NCBI GenBank assembly: GCA_000004985.1
Contig: GG738875.1
DNA: 64,000 nt
Source of the DNA: Naegleria gruberi
Lineage: Eukaryota
Direction: 5' to 3' (one strand)
Below, in pieces: positions 1-59,502 of this stretch. The first letter of the stretch is position 1. Every line of letters begins with the position of its first letter. A program made the translations under genes and the position numbers. The notes under the pieces were generated by a model, which worked only from the letters and a program-made list of their open reading frames with translations, did no database searches and was not told the DNA's origin.

Positions 1-198
1 ACAAAAGTTGAGAATGGATGAAAAGTTGTATGCTTCCACTGTTAAACTTCTTTCCAATACTTGGTGTGCCAAATCTCCAAATGCTCTCAAGGTACCATAT
101 AAATGTCCATTTGCCAGCGATTTGGATCCAAGATGTTTGTGGCTCTATGTTGACAGAATGAATTACAGACTTCCAGATAAGCAATAAGTCAGCCACAC
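1..198 (-). other. Open reading frame running off the window edge (unassigned possible coding fragment)
   Basis: About 77 codons with no stop on the minus strand reaching position 1. This is unusual for ~65% AT DNA. No recognisable domain. It overlaps the 3' end of the upstream glycosyltransferase ORF in another frame. Confidence 0.15.
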
Positions 199-230
199 AA
201 TTTATAAAATAAACCTGAATCACTAATTTA

Positions 231-3077
231 TTATTGATAAGTTTGACCAAAAAGATGACTAATATATTGAGCATTGCTTCCAGTCAATTGTATCAATTCA
301 AATAATCTCTTATAACCACCATAAACAAAGGATGTCATCAACTCTTGATAATAATCTTTTGGAATTGAATGAGCTTGTTTTGGAGTTCTTCCCACCGACA
401 TTGCATATAATGCCTCTGAAACAGAATGCTCATACTCATAGTGTGATTGAATCAAAAATTCGTGTAAATCGAAATTCTTTCTTTCAATTTTGTGATAGAC
501 TGATGGAGGATTGATAAGTTTGGCAAATGCTGTTGGCATGGTATTCTCAATGTATCGATTGGACATAATTTCTGAAGCTCCAGCATTGAATGCAGCTACT
601 ACTTCCTTATCATAGATGACTCCTTGAGCCACTTGTTTTGACCAACCTTCCAAAAGGGCTGGATGAATGAGAACATCTGAAAACTTCACTAAACTGCATT
701 CATCTTTGAAATTTCTATTCAAAAAGAGAACATTATCTGAAACATCATTGTCAATAATTAACTTTTTCACATATTGCTCATACTTGCTGTTAATAAATTG
801 GCCACTTATTATCAAGAGTGGTTGAGCTCCATATTTAATCTTCTTCTTTGCATAGGAAAGAGCAATAATAGAAACATGATGTCCCATTGCTGGACTAATC
901 TCATCATCCATTTGTGAAACAACAACATAACCATTCGTGCTATTGTAAGGTAAAATTTGTGGATTGACAGTGTAGGGTAAAATATTTTTCTCCCATACGA
1001 GGTCTCTCTCATTATATTTCAGTGGTTTGAATGGACAATCTTCTAATTGAGAGTCACTAATTCCATTACTAATCACAACCATCTTGTTAATATCCAATCC
1101 AAGATTCATATCTGAAAATATGGCTACATCTGAAGAGACACTCGTGTACATGGATGTATAATGATCTGCCTTGTAAAATTTTTCCAATAACTTCTTGTGC
1201 TTATCCTCCAAAAGCCACATGTACTGATTGTGAAGAGTTTGAACAATTGGAATGTTCAATTCCTTAGCAATTTCTAATCCAAAGGTCGAGTAGTGTGCAT
1301 TGACCACTGTGAATTTTTCACTTTGCAACAATTGCTTATACTCTGCTTTGGTTTGAACTCGTTTGACTGGAATATTTTCACTCGAGGATTTGATTTCCAA
1401 TTTTCCACAATTAATAATTGTAACACGGGCATTGTGATCTCTCAAGTATTGGGCCAATTCCATGACAATTGCATCCATTCCTTTCAAATGAGCATGGAAA
1501 TCCTCAATTTGAATGGCAACGTTCAGCTTGATTGGCTTTGGATTCTTTCCTTCAAAGTATTGCACATATTCGATTTCATTCTTGATTTCTCTACTGAATA
1601 CCATCACCGGAAGTGCTTTCTGTTTGATGAGAGGTGAAATTGTGAATGCATCTGCTCCTTGAATTCTTGTAAGACAATGCAAATTGGCAGCAATTGATGT
1701 TGATCTCTTCTCCTCCATCAATAACACTTGAGGCATAAAGAGGGCAGCTCTATTATAAATTGTCTTGTCATTGGTAACGAACAAGTTGAATCTCCTTTTC
1801 AAAAAATGTCTAAATCTATACAAGAAGAAGGTAAATGTTTCTTCTAATTTCGTCTTTTCACTTTCGTCAATACTTTCTGGTAAAACCCAACTCAATACAT
1901 TACATTCCGAAAGTTCCTTCAAAATGTCAAATCGTTTAAACTTGTTCAATACTTCCATTTCATTCATATCCTCAATTTCAAATAAAGCATCGAAATGATT
2001 TCGTTGAATAATTTCTTCCATATCTGCCATGTGAAGTGGAGGATCCTCTCTCTGATAAAGCTTCTTTCCAATTCTTTCTACCAAGATATCAGTCCAAAAT
2101 TGAGTGCTCTTTTCAAATCTTTCCTTCCAGGTGCTTGGAATAGTTTGGATATCACTATTTTCGAAAACATCAAATTCCATTCCATCAATCCAATCGAATA
2201 ATTCATTGGAAATCAAATGGTGATAAGGATATACCATTGAAGGAAGTGATGAAAATTTAGATTCTTCAGAACAAACAATCAACCATGCATTTGAATGAGA
2301 TTCCATCAAATTCTTAACAGTTTCCAAATTGACATCTCTATCTTCATGGTTAACAATATGAACTCGAATTTTCTCACTAGTTTTAACATTTTCTGATATG
2401 AATTCACTCAATTTCTTTTGATTAATTGGATCATCTCCACTTGCTGTTCTAAAAACAATTAAATCCAAAATATTATCACTATTCGAAGGTTGAAACTGTT
2501 TCGACCACGTTTGCAACAAGTAATTATTCAATCCTTTAGCATATTCCTTGACCATTGATTGTTTTCTTTTTGCCATTTCGATCTTTTCACTATTCGAAAG
2601 AATCTTTTTTGAATTAATTCTTTCTCTGATAATTCTTTCAACTAGAATACTGTCATCTTTTCTAAAAATTTGCATGATTACCCATAAACCCAGGGCCACG
2701 AACGTGATGGCCACAAGTAAAAACAATCCAATAATTAACCAAAACTTTCGTCTTAGGATTATCTTTACCAGTTTGCTATTCGAAAGGGAACGAGTACTCC
2801 AAGAGTCCCTTTCTGAAAATTGTACAGGGGCATAATCATAGGTTGATGATGAATGGCCAGATTTTTTCCTGCCACTTTCGGAAGGATAAACTTCCTCTTC
2901 ATTACTGTTTCGTCTAGACATTTTGTATCTCGGATTAATATTTGACAAGTTTGTAGAGGATAAATTAATATTTACATGATCTGAAGTGTTTTCCTCTTCT
3001 TCATGAGTTGTTGTTTCTTCTGATAGATTCCTGTCAGTAGTACTACTGTCATGATGACGATTCGAATGGTTGTGCAT
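231..3077 (-). CDS. Type II membrane glycosyltransferase, GT4-like (GT-B fold) C-terminal domain
   Basis: 948-codon ORF. ATG at 3077, TAA at 231-233. One TM segment (FWLIIGLFLLVAITFVALGLWVIM) follows a Ser-rich cytosolic N-terminus. The C-terminal region (LLEGWSKQVAQGVIYDKEVVAAFNAGASE) resembles the EX7E/nucleotide-sugar binding motif of GT4 glycosyltransferases. Confidence 0.5.
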   Translation of the reverse strand: MHNHSNRHHDSSTTDRNLSEETTTHEEEENTSDHVNINLSSTNLSNINPRYKMSRRNSNEEEVYPSESGRKKSGHSSSTYDYAPVQFSERDSWSTRSLSNSKLVKIILRRKFWLIIGLFLLVAITFVALGLWVIMQIFRKDDSILVERIIRERINSKKILSNSEKIEMAKRKQSMVKEYAKGLNNYLLQTWSKQFQPSNSDNILDLIVFRTASGDDPINQKKLSEFISENVKTSEKIRVHIVNHEDRDVNLETVKNLMESHSNAWLIVCSEESKFSSLPSMVYPYHHLISNELFDWIDGMEFDVFENSDIQTIPSTWKERFEKSTQFWTDILVERIGKKLYQREDPPLHMADMEEIIQRNHFDALFEIEDMNEMEVLNKFKRFDILKELSECNVLSWVLPESIDESEKTKLEETFTFFLYRFRHFLKRRFNLFVTNDKTIYNRAALFMPQVLLMEEKRSTSIAANLHCLTRIQGADAFTISPLIKQKALPVMVFSREIKNEIEYVQYFEGKNPKPIKLNVAIQIEDFHAHLKGMDAIVMELAQYLRDHNARVTIINCGKLEIKSSSENIPVKRVQTKAEYKQLLQSEKFTVVNAHYSTFGLEIAKELNIPIVQTLHNQYMWLLEDKHKKLLEKFYKADHYTSMYTSVSSDVAIFSDMNLGLDINKMVVISNGISDSQLEDCPFKPLKYNERDLVWEKNILPYTVNPQILPYNSTNGYVVVSQMDDEISPAMGHHVSIIALSYAKKKIKYGAQPLLIISGQFINSKYEQYVKKLIIDNDVSDNVLFLNRNFKDECSLVKFSDVLIHPALLEGWSKQVAQGVIYDKEVVAAFNAGASEIMSNRYIENTMPTAFAKLINPPSVYHKIERKNFDLHEFLIQSHYEYEHSVSEALYAMSVGRTPKQAHSIPKDYYQELMTSFVYGGYKRLFELIQLTGSNAQYISHLFGQTYQ

Positions 3078-9219: not shown

Positions 9220-9924
9220 TTATAATTTTGATTTTGCATGACCAATTTGATTGTAAGAAATATCAAGTGATGTTAATTGTTTCATTTCACTTATGAATTT
9301 GGCTCCTTCATTATCAATTTCATTGCTACTAATATTAAGTAATGTTAATTGTTTCATTTCACTTATGAATTTGGCTCCTTCATCACCAATTTGATTGTTA
9401 GAAATATCAAGTGATGTTAATTGTTTCATTTCACTTATGAATTTGGCCCCTTCATCATCAATTTCATTGCTACTAATATTAAGTAATGTTAATTGTTTCA
9501 TTTCAGTTATGAATTTGGCTCCTTCAATACCAATTTGATTGTTAGAAATATCAAGTGATGTTAATTGTTTCATTTCAGTTATCGATTTAGCTCCTTCATC
9601 ACCAATTCGATTGCAACCTATATTAAGTGATGTTAATTGTTTCATTTCACTTATGAATTTGGTGTTTTCTATGTCACCAAGCAACCAACCAGAAAAATTA
9701 AGATTAACAATACTATTCACGAATTGACTTTTTCTGAATAGTTCAATTCTTTTCTCTGTAAACTTTTTTTTAAATTCAATTACAAGTTTTGAACGTTCCT
9801 TGATCACATTAAAGAATTGTTTTGAAATTAAAGAACAATTATTCAAAATAAACCATGAATCATCAATCATGGAAATTATTTCAAAGCAAACATCATCCGA
9901 AAATATTTCAATCTTCATCTCCAT
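9220..9924 (-). CDS. F-box / leucine-rich repeat (RNI-like) protein, copy 1, truncated
   Basis: Probable start at MEMKIEIF (ATG ~9924). F-box-like DDVCFEIISMIDDSWFILNNCSLISKQF, then 24-aa repeats ISxNxIGxEGAKFISEMKQLTxL encoded by 72-bp tandem units. A duplicated ~145-bp 3'-end fragment at 9216..9360 introduces the stop at 9220. Confidence 0.55.
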   Translation of the reverse strand: MEMKIEIFSDDVCFEIISMIDDSWFILNNCSLISKQFFNVIKERSKLVIEFKKKFTEKRIELFRKSQFVNSIVNLNFSGWLLGDIENTKFISEMKQLTSLNIGCNRIGDEGAKSITEMKQLTSLDISNNQIGIEGAKFITEMKQLTLLNISSNEIDDEGAKFISEMKQLTSLDISNNQIGDEGAKFISEMKQLTLLNISSNEIDNEGAKFISEMKQLTSLDISYNQIGHAKSKL

Positions 9925-10763
9925 ATTGTTATGATTGATCACAATTATTAATATTAATATTATTAGTATTCTTATATATTTGATATAGTTTGTTGTAACT
10001 TGTTTGTTCTTTGCTTTTCGACTTGACACCTTCTTGATATTTGCTTTTAAATATTTTTTTTGGTTCTAAACTCGAAGAGGAAATGATTCGTGATAATTTT
10101 TCTGGATCGCTGACTTCAAATGATTGGTAAGGTGACACAATATCCAACCATTATCTGTGGATATGAAGTAATATTTCAGATCGTTGTCAGCATTTTTCCT
10201 CAGTGAATCTGTAGTTTCACTCTTGAGAGCCTTATTTATCATTGCTCATGCGAAGAGGAGCTTTGAACAATAGGAGAGGTAGAAATGACAAACCTACAGA
10301 CAGATGCCATCCTTTCCACGTGACATATATCAACTGGAGATGAAAGCACTTGTGTGTCAAAACACCATAATCTAAATCTTAATTCTGAGCTAACCACCCC
10401 TTTCAATTGTTTTGAACACTGAGTAATAATTACTGGTAATAAATAGCTGAATTGGTCAAAATTTAGAAAAGATTCAACACTGCTTCCCATTGAATTTTCA
10501 AAACAATTGTCATTATTAATAAAATCCAATTTAAACATGTCAATCCGTCCTACCAAAGATGGAGATCAAGTTATCAATTCACATACTGGTTAGCCGTTCT
10601 TGTTCAATTACCAAATTATTTCACATGATTCAAAAAACATCAGTGATTAAAATTTACCTGTAGTTCTGACAGAGGCAAATTAGTCAACAAGAATGTCAAA
10701 TGTCTACATCATTTCATTCACAAAAAAATATCAACAAAATAGCAACATCAAAAACACATCAAA

Positions 10764-13246: not shown

Positions 13247-14101
13247 TTATGGCTTAATTTTTGATTTTGCATGACCAATTTGATTGTAAGAAATATCAAG
13301 TGATGTTAATTGTTTCATTTCACTTATGAATTTGGCTCCTTCATTATCAATTTCATTGCTACTAATATTAAGTAATGTTAATTGTTTCATTTCACTTATG
13401 AATTTGGCTCCTTCATCACCAATTTGATTGTTAGAAATATCAAGTGATGTTAATTGTTTCATTTCACTTATGAATTTGGCCCCTTCATCATCAATTTCAT
13501 TGCTACTAATATTAAGTAATGTTAATTGTTTCATTTCACTTATGAATTTGGCTCCCTCAACACCAATTTCATTGCTACTAATATTAAGTAATGTTAATTG
13601 TTTCATTTCACTTATGAATTTGGCCCCTTCAACACCAATTTGATTGCTAGAAATTTTAATTGATGTTAATTGTTTCATTTCAGTTATGAATTTGGCTCCT
13701 TCAATACCAATTTGATTGTTAGAAATATCAAGTGATGTTAATTGTTTCATTTCAGTTATCGATTTAGCTCCTTCATCACCAATTCGATTGCAACCTATAT
13801 TAAGTGATGTTAATTGTTTCATTTCACTTATGAATTTGGTGTTTTCTATGTCACCAAGCAACCAACCAGAAAAATTAAGATTAACAATACTATTCACGAA
13901 TTGACTTTTTCTGAATAGTTCAATTCTTTTCTCTGTAAACTTTTTTTTAAATTCAATTACAAGTTTTGAACGTTCCTTGATCACATTAAAGAATTGTTTT
14001 GAAATTAAAGAACAATTATTCAAAATAAACCATGAATCATCAATCATGGAAATTATTTCAAAGCAAACATCATCCGAAAATATTTCAATCTTCATCTCCA
14101 T
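13247..14101 (-). CDS. F-box / leucine-rich repeat (RNI-like) protein, copy 2 (~285 aa, 9 repeats)
   Basis: As copy 1 but with two more 72-bp/24-aa repeat units and a different C-terminus (…GHAKSKIKP). Probable ATG at 14101 (MEMKIEIF). Confidence 0.65.
   Translation of the reverse strand: MEMKIEIFSDDVCFEIISMIDDSWFILNNCSLISKQFFNVIKERSKLVIEFKKKFTEKRIELFRKSQFVNSIVNLNFSGWLLGDIENTKFISEMKQLTSLNIGCNRIGDEGAKSITEMKQLTSLDISNNQIGIEGAKFITEMKQLTSIKISSNQIGVEGAKFISEMKQLTLLNISSNEIGVEGAKFISEMKQLTLLNISSNEIDDEGAKFISEMKQLTSLDISNNQIGDEGAKFISEMKQLTLLNISSNEIDNEGAKFISEMKQLTSLDISYNQIGHAKSKIKP
13253..13870. repeat. 72-bp tandem coding repeats (LRR units)
   Basis: Periodic repeats of ...GTTAATTGTTTCATTTCACTTATGAATTTGGC... 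visible directly in the DNA. Repeat number differs between the two copies of the block. Confidence 0.85.
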
Positions 14102-14938
14102 ATTGTTATGATTGATCACAATTATTAATATTAATATTAGTATTCTTATATATTTGATATAGTTTGTTGTAACTTGTTTGTTCTTTGCTTTTCGACTTGA
14201 CACCTTCTTGATATTTGCTTTTAAATATTTTTTTTGGTTCTAAACTAGAGAAGGAAATGATTCGTGATAATTTTTCTGGATCGCTGACTTCAAATGATTG
14301 GTTAGGTGATACAATATCCAACCATTATCTGTGGATATGAAGTAATATTTCAGATCTTTGTTGAGGACTCAGCATTTTTCCTCAGTGAATCTGTAGTTTC
14401 ACTCTTGAGAGCCTTATTTATCATTGCTCATGCGAAGAGGAGCTTTGAACAATAGGAGAGGTAGAAATGACAAACCTACAGACAGATGCCATCCTTTCCA
14501 CGTGACATATATCAACTGGAGATGAAAGCACTTGTGTGTCAAGACACCATAATCTAAATCTTAATTCTGAGCTAACCACCCCTTTCAATTGTTTTGAACA
14601 CTGAGTAATAATTACTGGAAATAATATATAGCTGAATTGGTCAAAATTTAAAAAAGATTCAACACTGCTTCCCATTGAATTTTCAAAACAATTATATCCA
14701 ATATAAACATGTCAATCCGTCCTACCAAAGATGGAGATCAAGTTGATATCAATTCACATACTGGTTAGCCGTTCTTGTTCAATTACCAAATTATTTCACA
14801 TGATTCAAAAAACATCAGTGATTAAAATTTACCTGTAGTTCTGACAGAGGCAAATTAGTCAACAAGAATGTCAAATGTCTACATCATTTCATTCACAAAA
14901 AAATATCAACAAAATAGCAACATCAAAAACACATCAAA

Positions 14939-24677: not shown

Positions 24678-26735
24678 TTAATGGAAAGCACCTCCATTAA
24701 CATTCAAAGTGTTACCACCCAAATTGTAAATGTAACCATACAAGTTGACATTGTTAAAGTTGAAAACACCCTTAGTCAAGACGTTACCATAGAATGGACC
24801 ATTAACAGCAACACTGTTACCAATAACCCAGAAAACATTGTTTTGAGTGGCACCATTGGTGAAAACAAAGTTGATATTGTTGGCATTCAAGTTGGTGCTC
24901 AACTTTAAGACAATCTTACCAGTACCAGAGAAGGTAACCTTGCTGTTACCATTCAAACCTTGTGGGAAACAGTAGACACCAGCAGTGAAAGTCAAACCAG
25001 CACTTGGAATGTTTTGATCCAAATTGCTTTGAGTACAAGTGGCAGCAAACAATTCATCATACTTGGCAATGGCATTTTCAATAACTTCAGCAGATTCACC
25101 ATTAGCAACATTGACAGCATAACCAGAGGCAGCAACGAGTTTTTGAACAGCAAAGGCTCTATCAGTGGCAACACTTCCTGGAACAGTCAATGAGGCAGAG
25201 TTTTGAACCAAGATGGATCCCTTTGAAATGACCTTGTATGGAGTCAAGATAGTACCAAAGGTAGTATCATAGTCACATGGCAAGACATTTGGAACGACAT
25301 ATGAGTCAGTAGTGAACTTCAAGTATGGAATTGTCTTATCTTCAAAGTATCCATCGAAAGTCAATTCAATAGTGAGAGCAGTGTAACCTTGAGCTGGATT
25401 TGGGAAGAAGACTTCATATTCGAATGGGTTTCCAGTAGCCTTTGGAGCAACAGTAACAGCAGTGAAAATTCTACCAATAGTGGTTTGTCTGAAATCTCTA
25501 CCATTTGGATTGTTGGCAGACCACAACTTGACAGCAGTAGGAACCTTACCATTCAAAATGTTCAACTTGACATTAACACCAGCAGCAGTGTAAGTGTGAG
25601 AGAAGGTATATTCAGGAAGTTCAATATTTTTCAAGACAGCATAGTAGAATGAGGCAACAGTCAAGACAACATCGGAACCAGTCATACCGTGACCAGTATT
25701 TGGAATATATCTCAAGTGCTTGTTCTTTCTATTTGGCATATCATTATAACTCAAAGTACTCATATCTGGCCAGAAGAATTCATCACCCATAGAGTTGACC
25801 ATATATTTTCTGTACTTGGCAAGATCTTCCTTCCATTCGAATGGATCAATAACTTCACAGAGCTTGGTAAAACCATAAGAGTTGACGTGTGGAGTGAAAC
25901 CAGCAGCAATATAATCATACATGGCAATTGGGAAGTCACAGAGAGAATTGTAAATGTGCTTGATAGCCTTTTGAGTATTTGGAATTTGAATAACGAGTGG
26001 AATGAGAGCCTTAACTCTTGGATCATTGGCAATACCAACTGTCCAAGTAGTCCAACCTCTCTTTGAGGCACCAGCAACAGTGAATTTTTCAATAGTGACA
26101 CCTGACACTTTGGTTGGCACAAAAGATTGAGTAGTATCCAATGCCAAGAGAGATGCCTTAGTCATAGGAAGTCTTGGAATCCACTTAACGTCCCTTGGGA
26201 AGTCGACTATATGCTTCCAAGCATATCCGATAATACCATCTTCAACTCTAACTTGATGCAATGGATCATTGGCATATGTCAATGGTTGATTAGGAATCAT
26301 CTTGACAGTGACACCAATAGTTTTACCAACAGTAGCCATAGCAATAGTGATTGGATCACCAGTTGGAAGACCATCAGTGGTATCTCCGTTAGTAATATAC
26401 ACAAAAGCTTCCTTTAAGCTTTTATCCAAATTGGTTGGAACAACAACTTCGAGATAGTGGAACCACAATGCACGATAACCAAATTCTTCTGGCAACCATT
26501 CAACTGAGGTCATATTAAGTACATATACAGTAGCACCAGTAACGGTGAATTCACTCAATAATTGATATGAATATTTTGGAGTTGGCTTATTTACATAGTC
26601 GGCCATAACTTTCTTATAGTCGATAATTTTGGTTGGGTCAGCAGCAATGTCAAATTGGTCTTCTGCATTGGAAAGGGCAGCAACAAGAGCCAAAATAACA
26701 GCCAACAAGACAATCAAGCTCTTTGAAAGCTTCAT
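24678..26735 (-). CDS. Secreted PhoPQ-activated-pathogenicity-related (PqaA)-like domain fused to ice-binding-like (DUF3494) domain
   Basis: 685-codon ORF, ATG at 26735, signal peptide MKLSKSLIVLLAVILALVAALSNA. N-terminal ~420 aa has PqaA-like features (YxxLSEF...W, GASKRGWTTW). C-terminal ~200 aa matches the DUF3494/IBP beta-helix pattern (GLTFTAGVYCF ... NVFWVIGNSVAVNG ... GNVLTKGVFNF). Confidence 0.65.
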   Translation of the reverse strand: MKLSKSLIVLLAVILALVAALSNAEDQFDIAADPTKIIDYKKVMADYVNKPTPKYSYQLLSEFTVTGATVYVLNMTSVEWLPEEFGYRALWFHYLEVVVPTNLDKSLKEAFVYITNGDTTDGLPTGDPITIAMATVGKTIGVTVKMIPNQPLTYANDPLHQVRVEDGIIGYAWKHIVDFPRDVKWIPRLPMTKASLLALDTTQSFVPTKVSGVTIEKFTVAGASKRGWTTWTVGIANDPRVKALIPLVIQIPNTQKAIKHIYNSLCDFPIAMYDYIAAGFTPHVNSYGFTKLCEVIDPFEWKEDLAKYRKYMVNSMGDEFFWPDMSTLSYNDMPNRKNKHLRYIPNTGHGMTGSDVVLTVASFYYAVLKNIELPEYTFSHTYTAAGVNVKLNILNGKVPTAVKLWSANNPNGRDFRQTTIGRIFTAVTVAPKATGNPFEYEVFFPNPAQGYTALTIELTFDGYFEDKTIPYLKFTTDSYVVPNVLPCDYDTTFGTILTPYKVISKGSILVQNSASLTVPGSVATDRAFAVQKLVAASGYAVNVANGESAEVIENAIAKYDELFAATCTQSNLDQNIPSAGLTFTAGVYCFPQGLNGNSKVTFSGTGKIVLKLSTNLNANNINFVFTNGATQNNVFWVIGNSVAVNGPFYGNVLTKGVFNFNNVNLYGYIYNLGGNTLNVNGGAFH

Positions 26736-27458: not shown

Positions 27459-28955
27459 TTACCAGAACACATTGAAGTATGGTTCGATTTCATGTTCATA
27501 AAGAAGATCATCATCTTGTTCAATTTTCACAAAGGCAAAACAATTCACCTCCACAATGTGATCCTTGGCTTGCTCTTCATTGTCAACCTGGTAAACTACT
27601 TGATCGCAAACATTGCAAAATCTATTACTATTTTTGTAAACTTGTAGAGATTCAAATTTGAGAGGACATTTGTAGATACATTCGCATTGATTGACTAAAT
27701 TCCATTCATACTCTTTAATTCTGTAATATTTCTTTCGTTCTTTTGAAATATTAATAGTAGGATTATGTATTTTGATGTGATTGATTCTTCTTCTAAGAAC
27801 GCAAAGCCAATTCTTGATATTTAGGTTGTTTCCATTAAAGTTTGGAAAATAAAAACAAACTAATGGTTTCCAAATTTCCAATTGAACTCTTTCAAATGCT
27901 GAACTTTCTTCATTGACGATAGAGGTGATGTTATCGACAACATGACAAAGGGCTCCAGAATTATCTGATTGTGGATCTATTCTTCTATTGAAGAATAGAC
28001 TCAATAATGATTGGTTTACCCATCGCAAATCTATTCAATTCTGATAAATTCAGAAACTTCCAATCAGTATTAGAATCTCAGATGGCAATTCATAGATAGT
28101 AAATTGTGAAATAGATTCTCCAGTACCCAAATCCACATTAATACTACAAATATTCATTAATCCATTTAAAATACTGTGTGGAATAGATGCTGAATTGGGA
28201 ATATCCAATTCTAATCCAATACTTGCCACATTATCCATTGCTTCCTGAACTAACTTATTCAATTCGGGTGTGGTCGTTAAATTCATTAATTTCATATATG
28301 AACGGTTCCAAACCACAGGTGAATTCTCATAGTAATTCAACACCTTCAATCCATATTCAATTACTGGCATCATGTCTAACATTTCCAATAAATCAGCTTG
28401 CATTTTTCCAATTTTCTCTCCCTCACTCAAAATTAAACAATCTCTACAAGATTCCACCTGTCCCACTATTGTTCGAAACACAACTCCCAATTGTTGAAAC
28501 ATTGGAGCAAGTATAGGAACTGGAATGGTGGCGGTGAATCCACTTCTGATGTAAATATTGCGTGGAGATCTTTCTCCAATTTTTGCCCTTGTTTCAAATT
28601 TGAAAGATTGAATTTGTTCAATCAATTCTTCAATTTCTGATGAATTTGTAAAGATTAGTCCAACATTTCCATTCAAATATTCGCAAATTTTGAGTAATGA
28701 CTCTGGATTGTGTTTCCTCTCCGAGGGTTTCACATTAAATTGAATGTCCTGAGCCAAGTTTCGAATAGCACTCTTGATCAATGTATTCTTTCCTTTCAAT
28801 AATATTGCTCTTCCTCTCAATTTCATTCGAATTATTTGCAATTGATCCGATTTCATACGAGTATCTATTTCAACAATAATTACATTCGAATGATCATGAA
28901 AATGTTGAATGACATCCTCGAATTTTACACTATTTTCATCATCATTCATTTTCAC
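27459..28955 (-). pseudogene. P0(uL10)-like / F-box / Cys-His finger gene, paralog B, disrupted by a -1/+1 indel pair
   Basis: ORFs 28050..28955 (P0-like domain ending in ELPSEILILIGSF) and 27459..28028 (rest of F-box + CxxC finger). Compared with paralog A there is a 1-nt deletion near 28041 and a 1-nt insertion near 28006, 35 nt apart, creating two in-frame TGA codons. Both indels lie in short homopolymers. Confidence 0.5.
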
Positions 28956-29273: not shown

Positions 29274-30689
29274 TCATTCATCCCAATAAATAATTCCCAT
29301 AGCTAAATCATCATCGTATTCATCCCCTCCTTCCACAAAAGCAATGCAATTTCCCTTAATGATATGATGTTTGGCTTGTTCTTCACTACCAACTTGGTAA
29401 ACTATCTTGTTGCAGACATTACACATTCTACTGGAAGAGGTGTGAAGTGGAAGAGAATCGTATTTGAGAGGACATTTGTAGATCCATTCACATTGGTTGA
29501 TGAGATTCCATTCGTAACTCTTAATTGCAAAAGATTCGTTTCTTGCTGATGCAAGGTTGACTGAAGGCATGTGTAGCTTGATATGGTCAATTCTTCTTCT
29601 GAGAACGTGGAGCCAATTCTTGATATTTAAATTATTTTTCCTAAAGTTAGGGAAGTAGAAACAAACTAATGGTTTCCAAATTTCCAATTGAACTCGTGTA
29701 AATAGTTCACTCTCTTCATTTATCATAGCAATTGAATTCTTGAGTGATTTCTCAATTGAATGAGATTGTGAAATAATTCTTCTATTGAAGAATAGACTCA
29801 ATAATGATTGATTACCCATCGCAAATCTATTCAATTCTGATAAATTCAAGAAACTTGCAATTAATATCAAAATTTCAGATGGTAATTCATTTACAGTAAA
29901 TTGTTGAATGGAATTAATTGTTCTCAGTTCTACCAAAACTCGACCGACATTCAATAATCCATTGAAAAGACTATGTGGAATAGATGCTGAATTCGGAATA
30001 TCCAATTCTAATCCAATACTTGCCACATTATCTACTGCTTCCTGAATTATACTATTCAAATTTAGAGATGCTCTCAGGTTTTCATATGTTTGATTCCAAA
30101 CCACGTGTGAATTTTCATAGGAAGCTACCACTTTCAGTCCGTATGCAATCATCGGTTCCATCTTCAACAATTCCAAAAAATCTGCCTTTTCCTTTGTAAT
30201 TTTCTCTCCAGCTCTCAAAAGTAAAAAATCTGTCGATGCATATACATCCTGTTGAGCTATGTCTCCAACCTTTGCCTTTGCTTCAAATTTGAAAGATTGA
30301 ATTTGTTCAATCAATTCTTCAATTTCTGTTGAATTTGTAAAGATTAGTCCAACATTTCCTCTCAAATATTCGCAAATTTGATAAAGAACTTCTGGATTGT
30401 GCTTCCACTCTGATGGTTTCACATTAAATTGAATATCCTGAGCCAAGTTTCGAATAGCACTTCTGATCAATGTATTCTTTCCCACCAATAATTCGGCCTT
30501 CTCTCTCAATTTCATTCGAACTATTTGTAACTGATCCGATTTCATTCGAGGATGTATTTTAATAATAATTACATTCGAATGATCATGAAAATGTTGAATG
30601 ACCTTCTCGAATTTTGCACATTTATGAGAGAGACCCTTCTTTTCGGAATGAAATTGTTGTTTTGAAGCTGATTCGTCCAAGTTTTTCAT
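29274..30689 (-). CDS. Ribosomal stalk protein P0 (uL10)-like domain fused to F-box and C-terminal Cys/His zinc-finger-like domain, paralog A
   Basis: 471-codon ORF, ATG at 30689. The N-terminal ~250 aa matches the P0 core (SDQLQIVRMKLREKAELLVGKNTLIRSAIRNL; LRGNVGLIFTNSTEIEELIEQI; AVDNVASIGLELDIPNSASIPHSLFNGL). It has no acidic P-protein tail. Instead it carries an F-box (LPSEILILIASFLNLSELNRF..SLLSLF) and then CEWIYKCPLK..CNVCNKIVYQV..KHHIIKGNC. Confidence 0.7.
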   Translation of the reverse strand: MKNLDESASKQQFHSEKKGLSHKCAKFEKVIQHFHDHSNVIIIKIHPRMKSDQLQIVRMKLREKAELLVGKNTLIRSAIRNLAQDIQFNVKPSEWKHNPEVLYQICEYLRGNVGLIFTNSTEIEELIEQIQSFKFEAKAKVGDIAQQDVYASTDFLLLRAGEKITKEKADFLELLKMEPMIAYGLKVVASYENSHVVWNQTYENLRASLNLNSIIQEAVDNVASIGLELDIPNSASIPHSLFNGLLNVGRVLVELRTINSIQQFTVNELPSEILILIASFLNLSELNRFAMGNQSLLSLFFNRRIISQSHSIEKSLKNSIAMINEESELFTRVQLEIWKPLVCFYFPNFRKNNLNIKNWLHVLRRRIDHIKLHMPSVNLASARNESFAIKSYEWNLINQCEWIYKCPLKYDSLPLHTSSSRMCNVCNKIVYQVGSEEQAKHHIIKGNCIAFVEGGDEYDDDLAMGIIYWDE

Positions 30690-40119: not shown

Positions 40120-40155
40120 TGGAGTCATAGGGAATCGAACCCTAGACCTTCTGCA

Positions 40156-40186
<31 letters not shown>

Positions 40187-40192
40187 AACCCC
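40120..40192 (-). tRNA. tRNA-Ala (anticodon UGC)
   Basis: Reverse complement GGGGTTATAGCTCAGTTGGTAGAGCGTCTGCTTTGCATGCAGAAGGTCTAGGGTTCGATTCCCTATGACTCCA. G3:U70 Ala identity pair, anticodon loop TTTGCAT, T-arm GGTTCGATTCC. Confidence 0.85.
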
Positions 40193-41249: not shown

Positions 41250-44200
41250 ATGTCTAATACAAATTATATTAATCCAGCCACAAATCAAGTGTGGACATCA
41301 AAGGAAATTCGTAAGCAATTTGTCGAATTCTTTGAAAAGAAGTATGAACATACATTCGTTCCAAGTAGTTCTGTCGTTCCACATGAAGATCCAACCTTGT
41401 TGTTCACCAATGCTGGGTAAGTTTTAAAGCTAGCACACCTATATTTATATTTCTTTACCATCTATTTACTATTGGATTACACATATTCACAATCTTGAAT
41501 TCCGGAATTGAACAAATTATTGAACAATAATATTATACAATAACTCTTCACAGTATGAATCAATTCAAGGCTATTTTCCTTGGTCAAGCTAGTCCAGACT
41601 CTAGTTTGGCTAAATTGAAGCGTGCTGCTAACTCTCAAAAGTGTATCCGTGCTGGTGGTAAACATAACGATCTCGATGATGTCGGTAAGGACACTTATCA
41701 CCACACCTTCTTTGAAATGTTAGGTAACTGGTCATTTGGTGACTATTTCAAGAGAGAAGCTATTACATGGGCTTGGGAATTGCTCACTGAGGTTTATGGA
41801 TTGGAAAAGGATAGACTCTATGTCACATATTTTGGTGGTAATGAAAAGCTCAACTTGCCAGCTGACGAAGAAGCTAAACAAATTTGGGGACAATTTGTTC
41901 CAGATGATCATATTTTGCCAGGTTCTATGAAGGATAACTTCTGGGAAATGGGTGATACTGGTCCATGTGGTCCTTGCAGTGAAATTCACTACGATCGTAT
42001 TGGTGGACGTAATGCTGCTCATCTCGTAAATATGGATGATCCAAACGTTTTGGAAATTTGGAACAATGTTTTTATGGAATTCAACAGAAAGGAAGATCAA
42101 ACATTGGAATATTTGCCAGCCAAGCACGTCGATACTGGTATGGGTCTCGAAAGATTAGTTTCCATCTTGCAAAACAAGATGAGTAACTATGATACCGATG
42201 TTTTCATGCCAATCTTTGAAGCTATTCAAAAGGAAACTGGTTCTCGTCCATACACTGGTAAATTGGGTGCTGAAGATGTTGACCACATTGATACTGCTTA
42301 TCGTGTCATTGCTGATCACATTCGTACCCTCGTTATTGCTCTCTCCGATGGTGGTTATCCAGACAATACTGGTAGAGGATATGTTCTTCGTCGTATTGTT
42401 CGTCGTGCTGTCAGATTTGGTGAATTTATGAATGCCAAGAAGGGTTTCCTTACTCGTTTGGCTTCTTGTGTCGTTGAACTTATGGGTGATTTCTTCCCAG
42501 AATTGAAGAAGAATTCTGAAAAGGTTGAAGAACTCATTCAAAGTGAAGAAGTTTTGTTCGCCAAGACTCTCCGTGTTGGTTTGAAATTCTTTAACAGAAT
42601 TGCTGAAAAGATGAAGAGCAATGGTGAAAGTGTTGTTTCTGGTCCTGATGCTTTCAAGTTATATGCTACCTATGGTTTCCCAGTTGACTTGACTTTAATT
42701 ATGGCTCAAGAACAAGGTATGACTGTCGATATGGTTGAATACAAGAAGGAAATGGAAAAGCACGCTACTGCTTCTCAAGGTACTAAGCAAGAAGCTACTG
42801 ACATGAAGCTTGGTGTTATTGAAACTGACAAGTTACAAAATGAACTTAAGATTGAACCAACTCAAGATGATATCAAATATGTTTGGGAAAATATTCAAGC
42901 TAAGGTTGTTGCTATCTTTAGTGAATCTAGCGGATTTGTTGAAGAATTGAACACTGAATGTGAAGAAGTCAATATTGGTATTATTTTGGATCAAACCAAC
43001 TTTTATGCTGAAGGAGGTGGTCAAGCTCCAGATAATGGTGTTTTGAGAATTGGTGAAACTGAATTGAAGGTTGTCAATGTTCAAAAGTTTGCTGGTTATA
43101 TTTTACATATTGTTAACGTTTCTGAATCCAAGCTTGCTGGTAACGTTACTGTTGGTACTACTGTTTCTTCAGAAGTTAACTATGAAAGAAGAGAACCAAT
43201 CGCTGCTAACCACACCTCTACTCACATGCTCAACTTTGCTTTGAGAAAGGTTTTGGGTACTGACTGTGACCAACAAGGTTCCATTGTTAAGGAAGAAGAA
43301 TTGTGCTTTGACTTCTCTGCTGCTAAGGCTCCATCTGTTGAACAAGTTGCTGAAGTTGAAAAGATTGTTAATGATCTCATTGTTGCTGATCATCCAGTCT
43401 TCTCTAAGGTTCAAGAACGTGATGCTGCTTATGAAATTAATGGTCTCAGAGCCATGTTCAGTGCTAACTATGGCGAACAAGTTCGTGTTGTTTCCATCGG
43501 TCAAGACAGTGATAGCATCATGACTGATAGATCAAATGAAAAGTGGCGTTTGATTTCAGTTGAATTCTGTGGTGGTACTCACTTGAAGCAAACCAGTCAA
43601 GCTCAAACCTTTGTCATTCTCTCTGAAAAGAGTATTTCAACTGGTAAGAGACGTATTGTTGCTTTGACTAGAAAGGCTGCTAAGGAAGCTGTTGAAAGAG
43701 CTCAAAAGTTCTCTGTCAAGATTGACGAATTAGAAAAACTCTCAGACGAATTGTTCTGTCCTCGTTACTATGAACTCACTTCTGAACTTACTTTGCTCAC
43801 TGATATTCCATTGCTTTCCAAGAAGGCTTTCGAAAAGAGATTGGAAGCATGCCAAACTAAGGTTCGTAAGATCCAACAATCTCAAAAGAAGGATGATGCT
43901 GAAAAGGCCAATCAACTCATTTCTCAACTCAAGGAGTCTATTGAACAAAAGTCATTGAAGTCCCTTGTCTACCAATTGGAAGATGGTTCTGATCAAAAGT
44001 TCGTCAAGAAGGTTATTGATGCTTTGACCACCATTCCAGTTTGTCTCATTTCTAAGGCTGATGATAAGACTATCATTGTCCTTGCCAGCGTTCCACAAGA
44101 ACAAACTGCTACTTTGTCTGCTAATACTTGGGTTACTGAAGTTTGTAAGGTTGTTTCTGGTAAGGGTGGTGGTAAGCCAATCTTTGCTCAAGGACGTGGT

Positions 44201-44260
44201 TCTGATGTCTCAAAGGTTGCTGAAGCTGTCAAGTTGGCTGAAGAAATGGCTAAATTCTAA
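41250..44260 (+). CDS. alaS: Alanyl-tRNA synthetase (class II), 2 exons, ~957 aa
   Basis: Exon 1 41250..41416 (ATG at [28 protein letters not shown]). Intron 41417..41553 (GTAAGT...CACAG, 137 nt). Exon 2 41554..44260 (TAA). Junction gives the canonical ...[15 protein letters not shown]. Frame stays open upstream to ~41076 with an R/S-rich presequence-like stretch but no in-frame ATG. Confidence 0.9.
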
Positions 44261-56629: not shown

Positions 56630-57470
56630 ATGTCATCACCAGAACCTATCCTCCACATCAAACCAAACCTTCTCCAAGAGAGCGAAGCCTTTTCCTCCAA
56701 ATTATATTCGCATCCAAACGAACGTGAATTATTTTCCTATTTTTCAATCATGAGGAAATGTGCACAGAAATCTCATCACCTGAATATTAAACAATTTGAT
56801 AGGGATTTAGTTAAAGAAGGACAATCAAAGTATCCACACGCTATGGAGGAGATTTTTGAGAGTGTTTGTGTTGGTAAGTTTCTGCATTGAAATAGTTTGG
56901 AATAGTTTGGAAGTGAATGAATTATTGGAAAGTGTTCCTTGTATTGGAAAGAAGTATCCGAGTGTTTTGGATGAAAGTGTGGACGAGAGAAGAGCTGAAT
57001 TTCTTCAGGATTTGAAATCTTGTGCAGAGTTTAAAACAGCTGCCGATAACAAGTTTAAATTAGTTTCGAATGATGAAGTTTTAACAAGAAATAATCATCT
57101 CGTGCAGAAATATGATCAAATGCTGGAACAAAACGGATCCATTACAAGATTTCCAACACTATACAGTCATTTACAACATTCTTCCACTACTGTAGATCAC
57201 TCAACAACAGTTGATCAACTTGTGAAAAAGCTCAACATTGAAGAACCAGTGAAGGAAGTTGCTAAGGATTTGCATTCATCAAGTCCTAACATGGTTTCTC
57301 TCATCTACAATTTATCAACTGCATTCTGTAGAGAACAAATCTTGGATTGTATCAAGAGAAGTTCTGCAAAATCATTGGATCAGGCATCATTTGTCAATTT
57401 GAGTACTTGCTTGGGAGGATCCTGCACTGCAAAAGTATTGGAATATTTGAGTGAAAAATCTCGTGAGTAA
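56630..57470 (+). CDS. Hypothetical protein (2 exons)
   Basis: Exon 1 56630..56873. GTAAGT donor at 56874. In-frame acceptor at 56913 (40-nt intron) or 56895 (22 nt). Exon 2 to TAA at 57470. Confidence 0.4.
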
Positions 57471-57534
57471 ATCTCTAATTGAGCATTTAATTGGATTCAT
57501 GTCGAATTTATTGAACTGTCGGAAATGTTTCGAA

Positions 57535-57999
57535 TTATTTTACTACATCCGCTACTTCATAACTTGATATGTAACTCTCTTGAACTTTCCTTCTTGCCAT
57601 TTTGCAATAATCATTTGCTTGTTCCAATTTATAATAATTTTCACAATATTTACTTCCACTTTCATTTCTTTGTAATTTGTAATTTTCTAATTGAGTTGGA
57701 AATTGTTCAAAATCAATCTTGACAACAGACATGGCTTTTCCCATGATAGAAGATAGTTTTAATTGGAATATCTTATAGTAATTGACAAATAATTGATTAT
57801 TACTTTTCATTTCCTGATAGAGAGGTTTTGAAATTAGAAATAATTTTGGTATTTCATAAAGTGGAAGAAATGACATGGTGTGAACTTGTATTTCTATTGG
57901 AATTTGTTTTGGAAAGTTTGCTAGTGTTGGTGGCAGTTTGTCACTGATAATTGTTTGCTCTGGTGAGCGAGTTGGTTCCTTCTTATTTGTATTTCCCAT
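57535..57999 (-). CDS. Small N-myristoylation-consensus protein with F-box-like motif
   Basis: 154-codon ORF starting MGNTNKK. IPIEIQVHTMSFLPLYEIPKLFLISKPLYQ resembles an F-box. Confidence 0.35.
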   Translation of the reverse strand: MGNTNKKEPTRSPEQTIISDKLPPTLANFPKQIPIEIQVHTMSFLPLYEIPKLFLISKPLYQEMKSNNQLFVNYYKIFQLKLSSIMGKAMSVVKIDFEQFPTQLENYKLQRNESGSKYCENYYKLEQANDYCKMARRKVQESYISSYEVADVVK

Positions 58000-58371
58000 T
58001 TTTTTTAGTTATTTTTATTCGAAATGTCATATCGGTTCGGCAGGCCTGAGAACTTGAGATGAAATAGGTAACTTTGCTAATATTTACACAGCCATTAACT
58101 CTCTTTCCTTTGGGAGTTCTTTCTAGCAACAGATAACTGAAACAATGCCAACCACAATAACCGGAGTCTCAGTATATGTGGTGAGTGGTTGTCTTCTCAA
58201 TTAAAACCAACGATGAAACTGAACTGGAATAGTTCCCAATTATGCTTGAATTTGAATAAACAATGGACCAATTTCAGATTTCTTTCTTCGAGTAATTATT
58301 TTGGAGTGTTTTTCCACTCTTTACTTGAAAATAAATAGTTACCATTCCATCGCATTGTAACATTAAAAAAA

Positions 58372-59502
58372 ATGTCTCAACAACCAGAAATGAATCACAC
58401 AACTTGGTTTGATCAAGATTTGCTGTTGGCCAATGTGTTTCTCTATTTACATCCGTATGAATTATTTAATAATTCTATTAAATCATCTACATGTAGAAAT
58501 GTTTGCCGATCATGGAACGGTTTAATTTGTGGTGAAGAATTTTGTAAATTTTATTTTGAAAACTCGTTTTGTTGTTATTCGTCCGAACCTTTTATTAATA
58601 AGTTAAATTGTAATCAATTGTTTGATACTTTAGATGGTGCACAATTTAATTGTTTTATGGATGAGGATGATGATGATGAAGAGAGAGAATTAGTTGACCT
58701 TGGGGATGATGATGAGGATGAGGATGATATTCAAGAGGAGTTTAAGCCTATTAATAATTTAACAGTTCAAGAATCTATTAAACAATTTGAACATGAGGCA
58801 ATTACTAAAATTGGATATGAATTCAATAATTTAAATTGGAAAAATAATTTCTACAAACGATTTCTAACACTAATTGCATATTTAAAAGATATTGATTCTG
58901 CAATTTGGGGTGTAACTGAATCGTTATTAAAACCATTAGATGATTCAAAAGTATTTAAATTAAATAATTTATTGAAAAAGTGGAAATTATCAAAATTATT
59001 ATCCAGTAATATATTTGAAATCAATGAAAAGACAATATTATTTTTTAATGATGATGGAATACCATATGTATTAAGATCCATTCGTAAAAGATTAATTCTT
59101 GACAATACTGAGATTATGAAAAATATTAAATTTGGATTTGACAAGGAAAGGATCACTAAAGTCCTTCCACAACTTGACAATCAACAAGACCAACAAGTGT
59201 TGTGTGATGTAATGTGTGGATTATTTCCAAGCTTAGTAGAACAAAAGAAGAAACTGCTAATTAAAAGGCCACCATCAGCATATATTATATTTGTAAAGAG
59301 AGCAAGAGAAAAAATTACACAAGAAAATCCTACAATGACTGTTATGGAAATTTCTAAAAAAATGGCATACATTTGGAAAGATATGAATGGTGATGACAAG
59401 CAATTTTATGTAGAACAAGCAATTCAAGAAAAATTGAAATATCAAAAACAAAAAGAAGAATTCGTATATTGTATTAGTGGATTAGATGAAAATGTTAATT
59501 AA
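58372..59502 (+). CDS. F-box + HMG-box protein
   Basis: 376-codon ORF, ATG at 58372. N-terminal F-box (DQDLLLANVFLYLHPYELFNNSIKSSTCRNVCRSWNGLI), acidic DE-rich linker. C-terminal HMG box (IKRPPSAYIIFVKRAREKITQENPTMTVMEISKKMAYIWKDMNGDDKQFYVEQAIQEKLKYQK). Confidence 0.7.
   Translation: MSQQPEMNHTTWFDQDLLLANVFLYLHPYELFNNSIKSSTCRNVCRSWNGLICGEEFCKFYFENSFCCYSSEPFINKLNCNQLFDTLDGAQFNCFMDEDDDDEERELVDLGDDDEDEDDIQEEFKPINNLTVQESIKQFEHEAITKIGYEFNNLNWKNNFYKRFLTLIAYLKDIDSAIWGVTESLLKPLDDSKVFKLNNLLKKWKLSKLLSSNIFEINEKTILFFNDDGIPYVLRSIRKRLILDNTEIMKNIKFGFDKERITKVLPQLDNQQDQQVLCDVMCGLFPSLVEQKKKLLIKRPPSAYIIFVKRAREKITQENPTMTVMEISKKMAYIWKDMNGDDKQFYVEQAIQEKLKYQKQKEEFVYCISGLDENVN

What the first reader, a model, noticed from the sequence alone, without database searches (positions are those of the whole stretch)
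58372..59502. F-box protein with a C-terminal HMG box
A canonical F-box (…VCRSWNGLI) at the N-terminus and a sequence-nonspecific-type HMG box (KRPPSAYIIF…W…Y) at the C-terminus are separated by an acidic linker. An SCF adaptor that binds DNA or chromatin directly is an unusual combination. This is the fourth F-box-type gene in this 64-kb window.
Basis: partly seen in the sequence, partly recalled or inferred. Interest (0 to 1): 0.55.

Follow-up and report, generated by a model that had tools for sequence, protein, structure and literature searches.

The report
Naegleria F-box-like / HMG-box protein
This is a real, intron-less Naegleria gruberi gene for a protein with a certain DNA-binding HMG box at one end and a divergent, below-threshold F-box-like motif at the other. 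It belongs to a small species-restricted family, and the public annotation mis-splices it so that the F-box-like part is lost.

Summary
The ORF at 58372..59502 (+), 376 aa, is real. The window is Naegleria gruberi.

- **HMG box (aa 297-364):** beyond doubt. Pfam gives 68.6 bits against a cut-off of 25.4, AF2 pLDDT is 82-92, and Foldseek matches HMG structures.
- **F-box:** not canonical. It fails both Pfam gathering scores (15.7/24.3 and 13.1/20.5; N-terminus alone 20.2 and 17.2). It also lacks the Leu-Pro start; the family has W-F-D-Q-D-L there.
- **F-box, profile-profile test:** the family N-terminus against ten Pfam-verified F-boxes gives 94% probability, score 39. Three hundred column shuffles gave 9.6 +/- 1.9, maximum 16.3. 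So it is probably a diverged F-box homologue. Skp1 binding is untested.
- **Architecture:** F-box-like, middle domain, HMG box and a YxISGL tail recur in at least three N. gruberi paralogues. The F-box-like part is the best conserved (57-59% identity; HMG 23-31%).
- **Distribution:** no relatives were found outside N. gruberi-like sequences.
- **Public model:** NAEGRDRAFT_50001 is a chimera that treats the F-box-like codons as part of a 1,171-nt intron.

Likely function is a DNA- or chromatin-tethered adaptor, possibly for SCF; this is inferred. Interest is modest: a new combination of known domains in a protist, with no functional data.

The parts
58372..59502 (+). Complete single-exon coding sequence, 376 aa plus TAA stop
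   Evidence: ORF list. First ATG after the in-frame stop at 58336, in an A-rich context. Colinear with paralogues P0007 and P0009 over its whole length.
58405..58563 (+). F-box-like N-terminal module, aa 12-64: conserved WFDQDL, helix 1 LLLANVFLYL, helix 2 HPYELF, an ~8-residue insert, helix 3 VCRSWNGLI, then EFCKFYFE
   Evidence: Pfam F-box-like E=0.013 and F-box E=0.096, both below cut-off. N-terminus alone: 5.2e-4 and 4.8e-3. hhalign against 10 verified F-boxes: 94.3%, score 39, matching aa 18-56; shuffles reach at most 16.3. Best conserved part among paralogues, 57-59%. AF2 is uninformative here, pLDDT ~30.
58372..58635 (+). First 88 codons, which the public model NAEGRDRAFT_50001 treats as intron
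   Evidence: 56% identical, E=6e-24, to the N-terminus of paralogue P0009. Stop-free by chance with P~3e-4, and a positive codon-usage score only in this frame.
58657..58740 (+). Acidic linker, aa 96-123 (MDEDDDDEERELVDLGDDDEDEDDIQEE)
   Evidence: Read directly. Poorly conserved in sequence among paralogues, 23-30%; P0009 and P0004 also carry acidic runs here, P0007 much less.
58759..59241 (+). Family-specific middle region, aa ~130-290; helices plus a small beta-sheet; no known family
   Evidence: No Pfam hit. Conserved in paralogues, 34-39%, with the motif WKNNFY.KFL. AF2 pLDDT 54-63 for aa 190-240 only.
59260..59463 (+). HMG box, aa 297-364, preceded by the basic QKKKLLIKR
   Evidence: PF00505 E=6.4e-19, 68.6 bits against 25.4. 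HMGB1 box B 40 bits. AF2 pLDDT 82-92. Foldseek to Sox, HMGB and HMG-D structures, target TM-score 0.6-0.87.
59467..59499 (+). Conserved C-terminal tail YCISGLDENVN (family motif Y-x-I-S-G-L)
   Evidence: Alignment A1. 62-75% identity with P0007 and P0009.
58000..58371 (.). 372-bp intergenic spacer shared head-to-head with the antisense ORF 57535..57999; presumed promoter region
   Evidence: Negative coding score in all six frames. Function as a promoter is inferred.

Best explanation
Positions 58372..59502 (+) are one intron-less Naegleria gruberi gene for a 376-aa nuclear-type protein. It belongs to a small, apparently lineage-restricted paralogue family with a fixed layout:
- a diverged F-box-like module at the N-terminus
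- an acidic linker
- a family-specific middle domain
- a basic stretch followed by an HMGB-type HMG box
- a conserved YxISGL tail

The most likely mode of action is a DNA- or chromatin-tethered adaptor:
- The HMG box binds and bends DNA through the minor groove.
- The conserved F-box-like module binds one partner common to all paralogues, most probably Skp1. That would bring a Cul1-Rbx1 ubiquitin ligase to chromatin.
- The middle domain, or a DNA-bound neighbour, would present the substrate.

Shown here: the gene structure, the HMG box, the family, and the profile-level homology of the N-terminus to F-boxes. Inferred: DNA binding, Skp1 binding, and any ubiquitylation.
For: **Gene structure**
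- The ORF is as stated.
- The 88 N-terminal codons are coding-like and stop-free (P~3e-4).
- They are 56% identical to the N-terminus of paralogue NAEGRDRAFT_67815 (E=6e-24).
- The exhaustive HMMER hit P0002 aligns over query aa 11-289, across the public model's splice site.

**HMG box**
- Pfam 68.6 bits.
- PDB sequence hits to HMGB1, NHP6A, Abf2 and SSRP1.
- AF2 pLDDT 82-92.
- Foldseek matches to HMG structures.

**F-box-like module**
- Weak Pfam hits recur in the same register in the target, P0002, P0007, P0009 and P0006.
- The top two PDB hits of the family profile are the KDM2B and KDM2A F-box peptides.
- hhalign gives 94.3%, P=1e-7, score 39. Three hundred column shuffles gave 9.6 +/- 1.9 (max 16.3), and other family regions gave 7.6-8.5.

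**Adaptor logic**
- The F-box-like part is the most conserved region among paralogues (57-59%), and the HMG boxes are the most diverged (23-31%).
- That pattern is expected when a constant module docks on a shared partner and a variable module chooses targets.
Against: - Both Pfam F-box models stay below their gathering scores in every family member.
- The Leu-Pro motif that starts F-boxes is replaced by W-F-D-Q-D-L and is not part of any alignment. From my own knowledge this motif is important for Skp1 contact.
- An ~8-residue insertion lies before helix 3.
- AF2 gives no confident fold for aa 1-187 (pLDDT ~30).
- No Skp1, DNA-binding, localisation or expression data were available.
- No orthologue was found outside N. 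gruberi-like sequences, so there is no deep conservation to argue for function.
Confidence: 0.5

Rival explanations
1. The protein is an HMG-box chromatin or transcription factor. Its N-terminal module descends from an F-box but no longer binds Skp1. It serves instead as a family-specific interaction or dimerisation domain, with no ubiquitin-ligase role.
For: The F-box match is sub-threshold and lacks the Leu-Pro start. There is an insertion before helix 3. The conserved block extends beyond the F-box into EF[AC]K[YF]YFE.SFC, which is family-specific. One paralogue has Asn at HMG position 10, as in sequence-specific factors (the rule is my own knowledge).
Against: Profile-profile homology to F-boxes is strong relative to controls. 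The N-terminal position and the high conservation fit a docking module. Several working F-boxes lack the proline (my own knowledge; FBXL3 has LL in place of LP and still scores 43-45 bits).
Confidence: 0.33
2. The F-box resemblance is chance. The N-terminus is an unrelated cysteine-rich helical domain.
For: It fails the Pfam gathering thresholds. AF2 gives no confident fold. The best PDB profile hit is only E=0.033. The region holds several cysteines at positions 41, 45, 53, 58, 67 and 68.
Against: hhalign score is 39, against a maximum of 16.3 in 300 composition-preserving shuffles. Independent weak Pfam hits occur in the same register in diverged paralogues. The only Pfam families hitting the region at E<=10 are the two F-box models. 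The top two of 177,635 PDB sequences are F-box peptides.
Confidence: 0.12
3. The public gene model NAEGRDRAFT_50001 (509 aa) is right. On that reading the F-box-like codons are intronic, and the HMG box belongs to a protein whose N-terminus is encoded at 56630..57462.
For: The model has consensus GT..AG sites, GTGAGT at 57463 and TTTAG at 58633, and it is the sequence on record.
Against: The 'intron' is 1,171 nt against an N. gruberi mean of 203 nt (PMC8296547). It contains a coding-like antisense ORF and 88 in-frame codons 56% identical to a paralogue's N-terminus. The upstream exons have no similarity to any paralogue. The upstream ORF reaches its own stop three codons after the 'donor'.
Confidence: 0.03

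Closest known systems
N. gruberi paralogues NAEGRDRAFT_46309 (XP_002681452, 427 aa), NAEGRDRAFT_67815 (XP_002676925, 359 aa) and NAEGRDRAFT_70799 (XP_002674151, 304 aa)
   Same: Same layout from end to end: WFDQDL...VCK.W F-box-like module, the WKNNFY middle domain, an HMG box and a YxISGL tail. All are annotated only as 'predicted protein'.
   Different: About 40% identity overall. 46309 has a 76-aa N-terminal extension. 70799 as annotated starts inside the F-box-like module (MVCRKW), and its HMG box is below the Pfam cut-off. 67815 has Asn rather than Ser at HMG position 10.
KDM2A / KDM2B (FBXL11 / FBXL10)
   Same: One polypeptide combines an F-box with a direct DNA-binding domain. Their F-box peptides (6byh_E, 6bva_E) are the best PDB matches of the family N-terminal profile.
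   Different: Their DNA binding uses a CXXC zinc finger, and they also carry JmjC, PHD and LRR domains with an internal, canonical F-box (my own knowledge). None of these domains is found here. The match is marginal (E=0.033) and covers helices 2-3 only.
HMGB1 box B, NHP6A, HMG-D and Abf2 (non-sequence-specific HMG-box proteins)
   Same: Best sequence matches of aa 296-364. Ser at position 10 and a hydrophobic wedge at position 13 (KRPPSAYIIF). An acidic stretch elsewhere in the protein, as in HMGB1.
   Different: These proteins have no F-box. Here there is a single box at the C-terminus of a larger protein, and the acidic run lies about 170 residues upstream rather than forming a C-terminal tail.
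Canonical F-box receptors (Skp2, FBXW7, beta-TrCP, Cdc4, TIR1)
   Same: N-terminal position of the module. Helix 1-2-3 pattern LL..VF.YL.P.EL...VC+.W..L, aligned by hhalign at 94%.
   Different: Those score 33-67 bits on Pfam, against 15-20 here. The Leu-Pro start is absent and there is an 8-residue insert. The C-terminal partner is an HMG box rather than LRR, WD40 or Kelch.
Ctf13 in the yeast CBF3 complex, and the FBH1 F-box helicase
   Same: F-box proteins that act on DNA (my own knowledge). They are conceptual precedents for an F-box module operating at DNA.
   Different: No sequence relation was tested or expected. Their DNA contact comes from other domains or subunits.

Membership tests
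HMG box (Pfam PF00505) | Profile score above the curated gathering score | tested here: met
   68.6 bits against 25.4, E=6.4e-19, full-length match to profile positions 1-68 of 69.
HMG box (Pfam PF00505) | L-shaped three-helix fold | tested here: met
   AF2 helices 303-318, 324-337 and 340-362 at pLDDT 82-92. Foldseek to Sox, HMGB, HMG-D and SSRP1 structures, target TM-score up to 0.87.
HMG box (Pfam PF00505) | Minor-groove DNA binding and bending | not testable with these tools
   Needs a gel-shift or circularisation assay.
HMGB-type (non-sequence-specific) subclass | Ser rather than Asn at box position 10; closest to HMGB/NHP6 rather than SOX/LEF | tested here: met
   KRPPSAYIIF has Ser. HMGB1 box B scores 40 bits, against 28 for SRY and 33 for SOX2. 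The rule itself is from my own knowledge and is a rule of thumb.
F-box (Pfam PF00646 / PF12937) | Profile score above the curated gathering score | tested here: not met
   Whole protein: 15.7/24.3 and 13.1/20.5. N-terminus alone: 20.2/24.3 and 17.2/20.5. Paralogues are also below threshold.
F-box (Pfam PF00646 / PF12937) | Homology detectable at profile-profile level | tested here: met
   hhalign 94.3%, P=1e-7, score 39 over 32 columns. Controls reach at most 16.3.
F-box (Pfam PF00646 / PF12937) | Leu-Pro motif at the start of helix 1 | tested here: not met
   The family has the conserved W-F/H-D/E-Q-D/E-L instead. Pfam and hhalign alignments begin after this point.
F-box (Pfam PF00646 / PF12937) | Three-helix F-box fold | tested here: inconclusive
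   AF2 predicts helices 12-23, 28-32 and 39-52, but at pLDDT ~30.
SCF substrate receptor | Binds Skp1 and assembles with Cul1-Rbx1 | not testable with these tools
Needs AF-Multimer or a pull-down.
SCF substrate receptor | Separate substrate-recognition domain C-terminal to the F-box | tested here: inconclusive
   A conserved middle domain (aa ~130-290) and the HMG box lie C-terminal to the module. Nothing shows either binds a substrate.
KDM2A/B-type DNA-binding F-box proteins | CXXC zinc finger, JmjC and LRR domains | tested here: not met
   No such Pfam hits at E<=10. The resemblance is one of concept only.

The most novel reading that the evidence does not exclude
This may be a Naegleria-specific family of DNA-templated ubiquitin-ligase receptors, in which an HMG box takes the place of the usual protein-binding LRR, WD40 or Kelch module. 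On that reading the SCF complex is positioned by DNA shape or sequence, and the paralogues, whose HMG boxes have diverged (Ser or Asn at position 10), address different genomic sites.
Probability: 0.25. Interest if true: 0.55.

Novelty: new variant of a known kind. Interest (0 to 1): 0.35.

Why it matters
If the N-terminal module binds Skp1, this family would be a natural case of a cullin-RING ligase receptor targeted by a generic DNA-bending domain. It comes from a deeply branching eukaryote (Heterolobosea). That bears on how often chromatin-directed ubiquitylation has been invented by domain shuffling. Practically, the work corrects a public gene model: NAEGRDRAFT_50001 fuses two genes and hides the N-terminal module. 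It also defines a small uncharacterised family: NAEGRDRAFT_50001 (C-terminal part), 46309, 67815 and 70799. Without functional data it remains a modest curiosity among the many lineage-specific domain combinations in protist genomes.

Tried and rejected
- **AF2, single sequence:** mean pLDDT 35, with even the HMG box unfolded, so it was useless.
- **AF2, 7-sequence alignment:** folded only the HMG box, so it could not judge the F-box.
- **Foldseek against PDB:** returned only HMG-box structures, all at E>=2.8e-3, and nothing for the N-terminus or middle region.
- **Word-indexed homologue searches:** the whole protein, aa 1-295 and the family alignment found only the public model and one paralogue. 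The exhaustive HMMER search was needed to find the family.
- **Exact-sequence look-ups:** the 376-aa ORF and the antisense 154-aa ORF are not on record. The loci of P0001 and P0005 could not be fetched.
- **Scans with family motifs:** JGI metagenome contigs and IMG/VR viral contigs held no relatives, so a giant-virus origin has no support.
- **Metagenome contig L002:** it is chimeric with bacterial DNA and was not used.
- **Literature:** no paper on an F-box/HMG-box fusion or on this family. No usable statement on Naegleria Skp1.
- **Zinc-binding reading of the N-terminal cysteines:** considered, but only C67 is invariant in the full-family alignment (C41 and C45 are shared by most members) and no zinc-finger family hits.

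Full report
**1. What is in the sequence**

The window is Naegleria gruberi. The only strong database match of the ORF is 'predicted protein [Naegleria gruberi]' at 100% identity. The neighbouring genes are ordinary eukaryotic ones: AlaRS, a TLC-domain protein, patatin and WD40.

The ATG is the first after an in-frame stop at 58336 and sits in an aaaaaaaATG context. The quoted motifs are present: VCRSWNGLI at aa 44-52 and KRPPSAYIIF at aa 297-306. Between them lies a 28-residue acidic run at aa 96-123.

**2. Gene model**

The public protein (EFC43155 / XP_002675899 / NAEGRDRAFT_50001, 509 aa) is not this ORF. I reproduced it exactly from exons 56630..56723, 56896..57462 and 58634..59502. It therefore joins an upstream ORF to residue 89 of the ORF and discards the first 88 codons, the whole putative F-box, inside a 1,171-nt intron.

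Five observations show this model to be a chimera of two genes:

- **Intron size.** N. gruberi introns average 203 nt and genes have 1.7 exons (PMC8296547).
- **Upstream stop.** The upstream ORF reaches its own TAA at 57468-57470, three codons after the supposed donor.
- **Content of the 'intron'.**
  - It holds a 154-aa antisense ORF with coding-like codon usage.
  - It also holds the 88 in-frame codons. They are stop-free (P~3e-4 for that composition) and score as coding only in that frame.
  - The true spacer 58000..58371 scores as non-coding in all six frames.
- **Paralogue comparison (decisive).**
  - The 88 codons are 56% identical (E=6e-24) to the N-terminus of paralogue NAEGRDRAFT_67815, which begins MANWFDQDL....
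  - The upstream exons resemble no paralogue; the best E-value is 13.
- **Alignment across the splice site.** The best family hit aligns over query aa 11-289, straight across the supposed acceptor.

**3. The HMG box**

- Pfam HMG_box gives E=6.4e-19, 68.6 bits against a cut-off of 25.4, over the full profile.
- The best solved relatives by sequence are HMGB1 box B (40 bits), HMGB2/3, Abf2, SSRP1 and NHP6A. SOX and SRY score lower.
- With a 7-sequence alignment AF2 folds aa 300-360 at pLDDT 82-92.
- Foldseek finds only HMG-box structures.
- The box has Ser at position 10 (KRPPSAYIIF). By the textbook rule (my own knowledge) this marks the non-sequence-specific class.
- Paralogue 67815 has Asn there (RRPLNTYMLF).

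**4. The F-box**

| Query | F-box-like PF12937 (cut-off 24.3) | F-box PF00646 (cut-off 20.5) |
|---|---|---|
| Whole target protein | E=0.013, 15.7 bits | E=0.096, 13.1 bits |
| Target N-terminus alone | E=5.2e-4, 20.2 bits | E=4.8e-3, 17.2 bits |
| Ten textbook F-boxes | 33.6-66.9 bits | 28.0-47.0 bits |

The hits begin at profile position 8, after the Leu-Pro motif. So 'canonical' is wrong.

The resemblance is nevertheless not chance:

- **Recurring weak hits.** The paralogues give independent weak hits in the same register: P0002 0.023, P0006 0.024, P0009 0.029, and P0009 N-terminus alone 0.0017.
- **PDB profile search.** A profile of the family N-terminus, searched against all 177,635 PDB sequences, puts the F-box peptides of KDM2B (E=0.033) and KDM2A first.
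- **Profile-profile comparison.**
  - hhalign of that profile against an alignment of the ten verified F-boxes gives 94.3% probability, P=1e-7 and score 39.
  - It aligns LLANVFLYLHPYELF...VCRSWNGLICGEE with Skp2 LLLGIFSCLCLPELLK..GVCKRWYRLASDES.
  - An ~8-residue insertion sits before helix 3.
- **Controls.**
  - Three hundred column shuffles of the family alignment scored 9.6 +/- 1.9, maximum 16.3.
  - The reversed alignment scored 10.4.
  - The other three regions of the family scored 7.6-8.5.

AF2 gives no confident structure for aa 1-187 (pLDDT ~30), so the fold is untested.

My reading is that this is a diverged homologue of the F-box core, helices 1 to 3. In it the Leu-Pro start is replaced by a family-conserved W-F-D-Q-D-L. 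Whether it still binds Skp1 cannot be decided here.

**5. The family**

Word-indexed searches found nothing. The exhaustive HMMER search with aa 1-295 found six representatives. They resolve to:

- N. gruberi NAEGRDRAFT_46309 (427 aa)
- N. gruberi NAEGRDRAFT_67815 (359 aa)
- N. gruberi NAEGRDRAFT_70799 (304 aa, apparently N-terminally truncated by annotation)
- Unnamed contigs from ENA metagenomes and Logan assemblies, some about 97% identical to 46309

46309 and 67815 share the whole layout with the target: WFDQDL...VCK.W, then EFAKYYFE.SFC, an acidic or variable linker, a middle domain with WKNNFY.KFL, an HMG box and a YxISGL tail. A metagenome contig (L001) carries a shorter, more diverged member with the F-box-like part and an HMG-like part in adjacent frames.

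No relatives were found in JGI metagenome contigs or viral contigs, and none outside N. gruberi-like sequences in 1.84 billion representatives.

Identity of the target to the paralogues, by region:

| Region | Identity |
|---|---|
| F-box-like module | 57-59% |
| YxISGL tail | 43-75% |
| Middle domain | 23-39% |
| HMG box | 23-31% |

**6. How it most likely works**

A constant N-terminal module with a diverging DNA-binding module is the pattern of an adaptor family. On that reading the constant part docks on a shared partner and the variable part selects targets.

The best-supported partner, by homology, is Skp1. Skp1 and Cul1 are general eukaryotic components (my own knowledge; not checked here for Naegleria). 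The HMG box would then place the complex on DNA or chromatin. The middle domain would be the candidate substrate-binding part. By analogy with HMGB1, the acidic run may fold back on the basic HMG box and modulate DNA binding. All of this is inference.

The main rival is that the module has lost Skp1 binding, and that the proteins are simply HMG-box chromatin or transcription factors with a family-specific interaction domain. My confidence is about 0.5 for the adaptor reading against 0.33 for this rival.

**7. Comparison with what is known, and novelty**

- DNA-binding F-box proteins exist: KDM2A/B via CXXC, the FBH1 helicase, and Ctf13 within CBF3 (my own knowledge). The concept is therefore not new.
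- None of their other domains is present here.
- I found no paper describing an F-box/HMG-box fusion or this family. I could not query domain-architecture databases.
- I rate this a new variant of a known kind: a new combination of two known modules, restricted as far as I can see to the N. gruberi lineage.

**8. The remark about other F-box genes in the window**

| Locus | What is there | Evidence |
|---|---|---|
| 57535..57999 (-) | Antisense neighbour with IPIEIQVHTMSFLPLYEIPKLFLISKPLYQE | hhalign 33%, no Pfam hit |
| 29274..30689 (-) and 28050..28955 (-) | Two ribosomal-L10-like ORFs carrying ELPSEILILI | Pfam F-box-like E=0.0015 for the first |
| 9220..10029 (-) and 13247..14203 (-) | Two LRR genes with an F-box-like string | No Pfam F-box hit |

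None is significant alone.

**Verdict**

- Interest is 0.35.

Noticed in passing
window 56630..59502: The public model NAEGRDRAFT_50001 (XP_002675899.1, 509 aa) fuses two genes. The upstream gene is 56630..56723 + 56896..57470, with its own TAA stop. The second is the HMG-box gene, whose first 88 codons the model drops inside a 1,171-nt 'intron'.
   Followed up: yes
window 57535..57999 (-): This 154-aa ORF is not on record as a protein and lies inside that 'intron'. Its codon usage is coding-like. It has a weak F-box-like stretch (IPIEIQVHTMSFLPLYEIPKLFLISKPLYQE; hhalign 33%, no Pfam hit). It is arranged head-to-head with the HMG-box gene across a 372-bp spacer.
   Followed up: partly
window 29274..30689 (-) and 28050..28955 (-): Two adjacent ORFs each have a Ribosomal_L10 / P0-like N-terminal domain followed by an 'ELPSEILILI' F-box-like start. 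Pfam F-box-like gives E=0.0015 for the first, below cut-off. This is an odd pairing that may reflect unresolved exon structure.
   Followed up: partly
window 9220..10029 (-) and 13247..14203 (-): Two LRR_6-rich genes about 4 kb apart have identical N-terminal ~70 residues (MEMKIEIFSDDVCFEIISMIDD...ISKQFFNVI). This looks like a recent local duplication. The F-box-like string is not detected by Pfam.
   Followed up: partly
window 40120..40192 (-) and 41555..44260 (+): A tRNA-Ala(TGC) gene lies about 1.4 kb from the alanyl-tRNA synthetase gene, on the opposite strand.
   Followed up: no
window 24678..26735 (-): A 685-aa ORF combines a PhoPQ-activated pathogenicity-related domain (E=4e-94) with a C-terminal ice-binding-like domain (E=1e-10).
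   Followed up: no
P0009 (NAEGRDRAFT_67815) HMG box; compare window 59260..59290: At HMG-box position 10, paralogue 67815 has Asn (RRPLNTYMLF, the sequence-specific type). The target and 46309 have Ser. This hints that the paralogues differ in DNA-recognition mode.
   Followed up: no
L001 1..809 (ENA ERZ929261 metagenome contig): The contig carries a short, diverged family member. An F-box-like ORF (13..459) and an HMG-like ORF ending in the family tail FIISL (414..809) sit in different frames, so there is an intron or frameshift. The same sample holds a ~97% copy of NAEGRDRAFT_46309, so an N. gruberi-like amoeba is present in it.
   Followed up: partly
L002 1..1334 (ENA ERZ724101 contig): This metagenome contig looks chimeric. 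About 350 nt of a Naegleria-family fragment are joined to GC-rich bacterial-looking sequence that encodes a DUF998 membrane protein.
   Followed up: no
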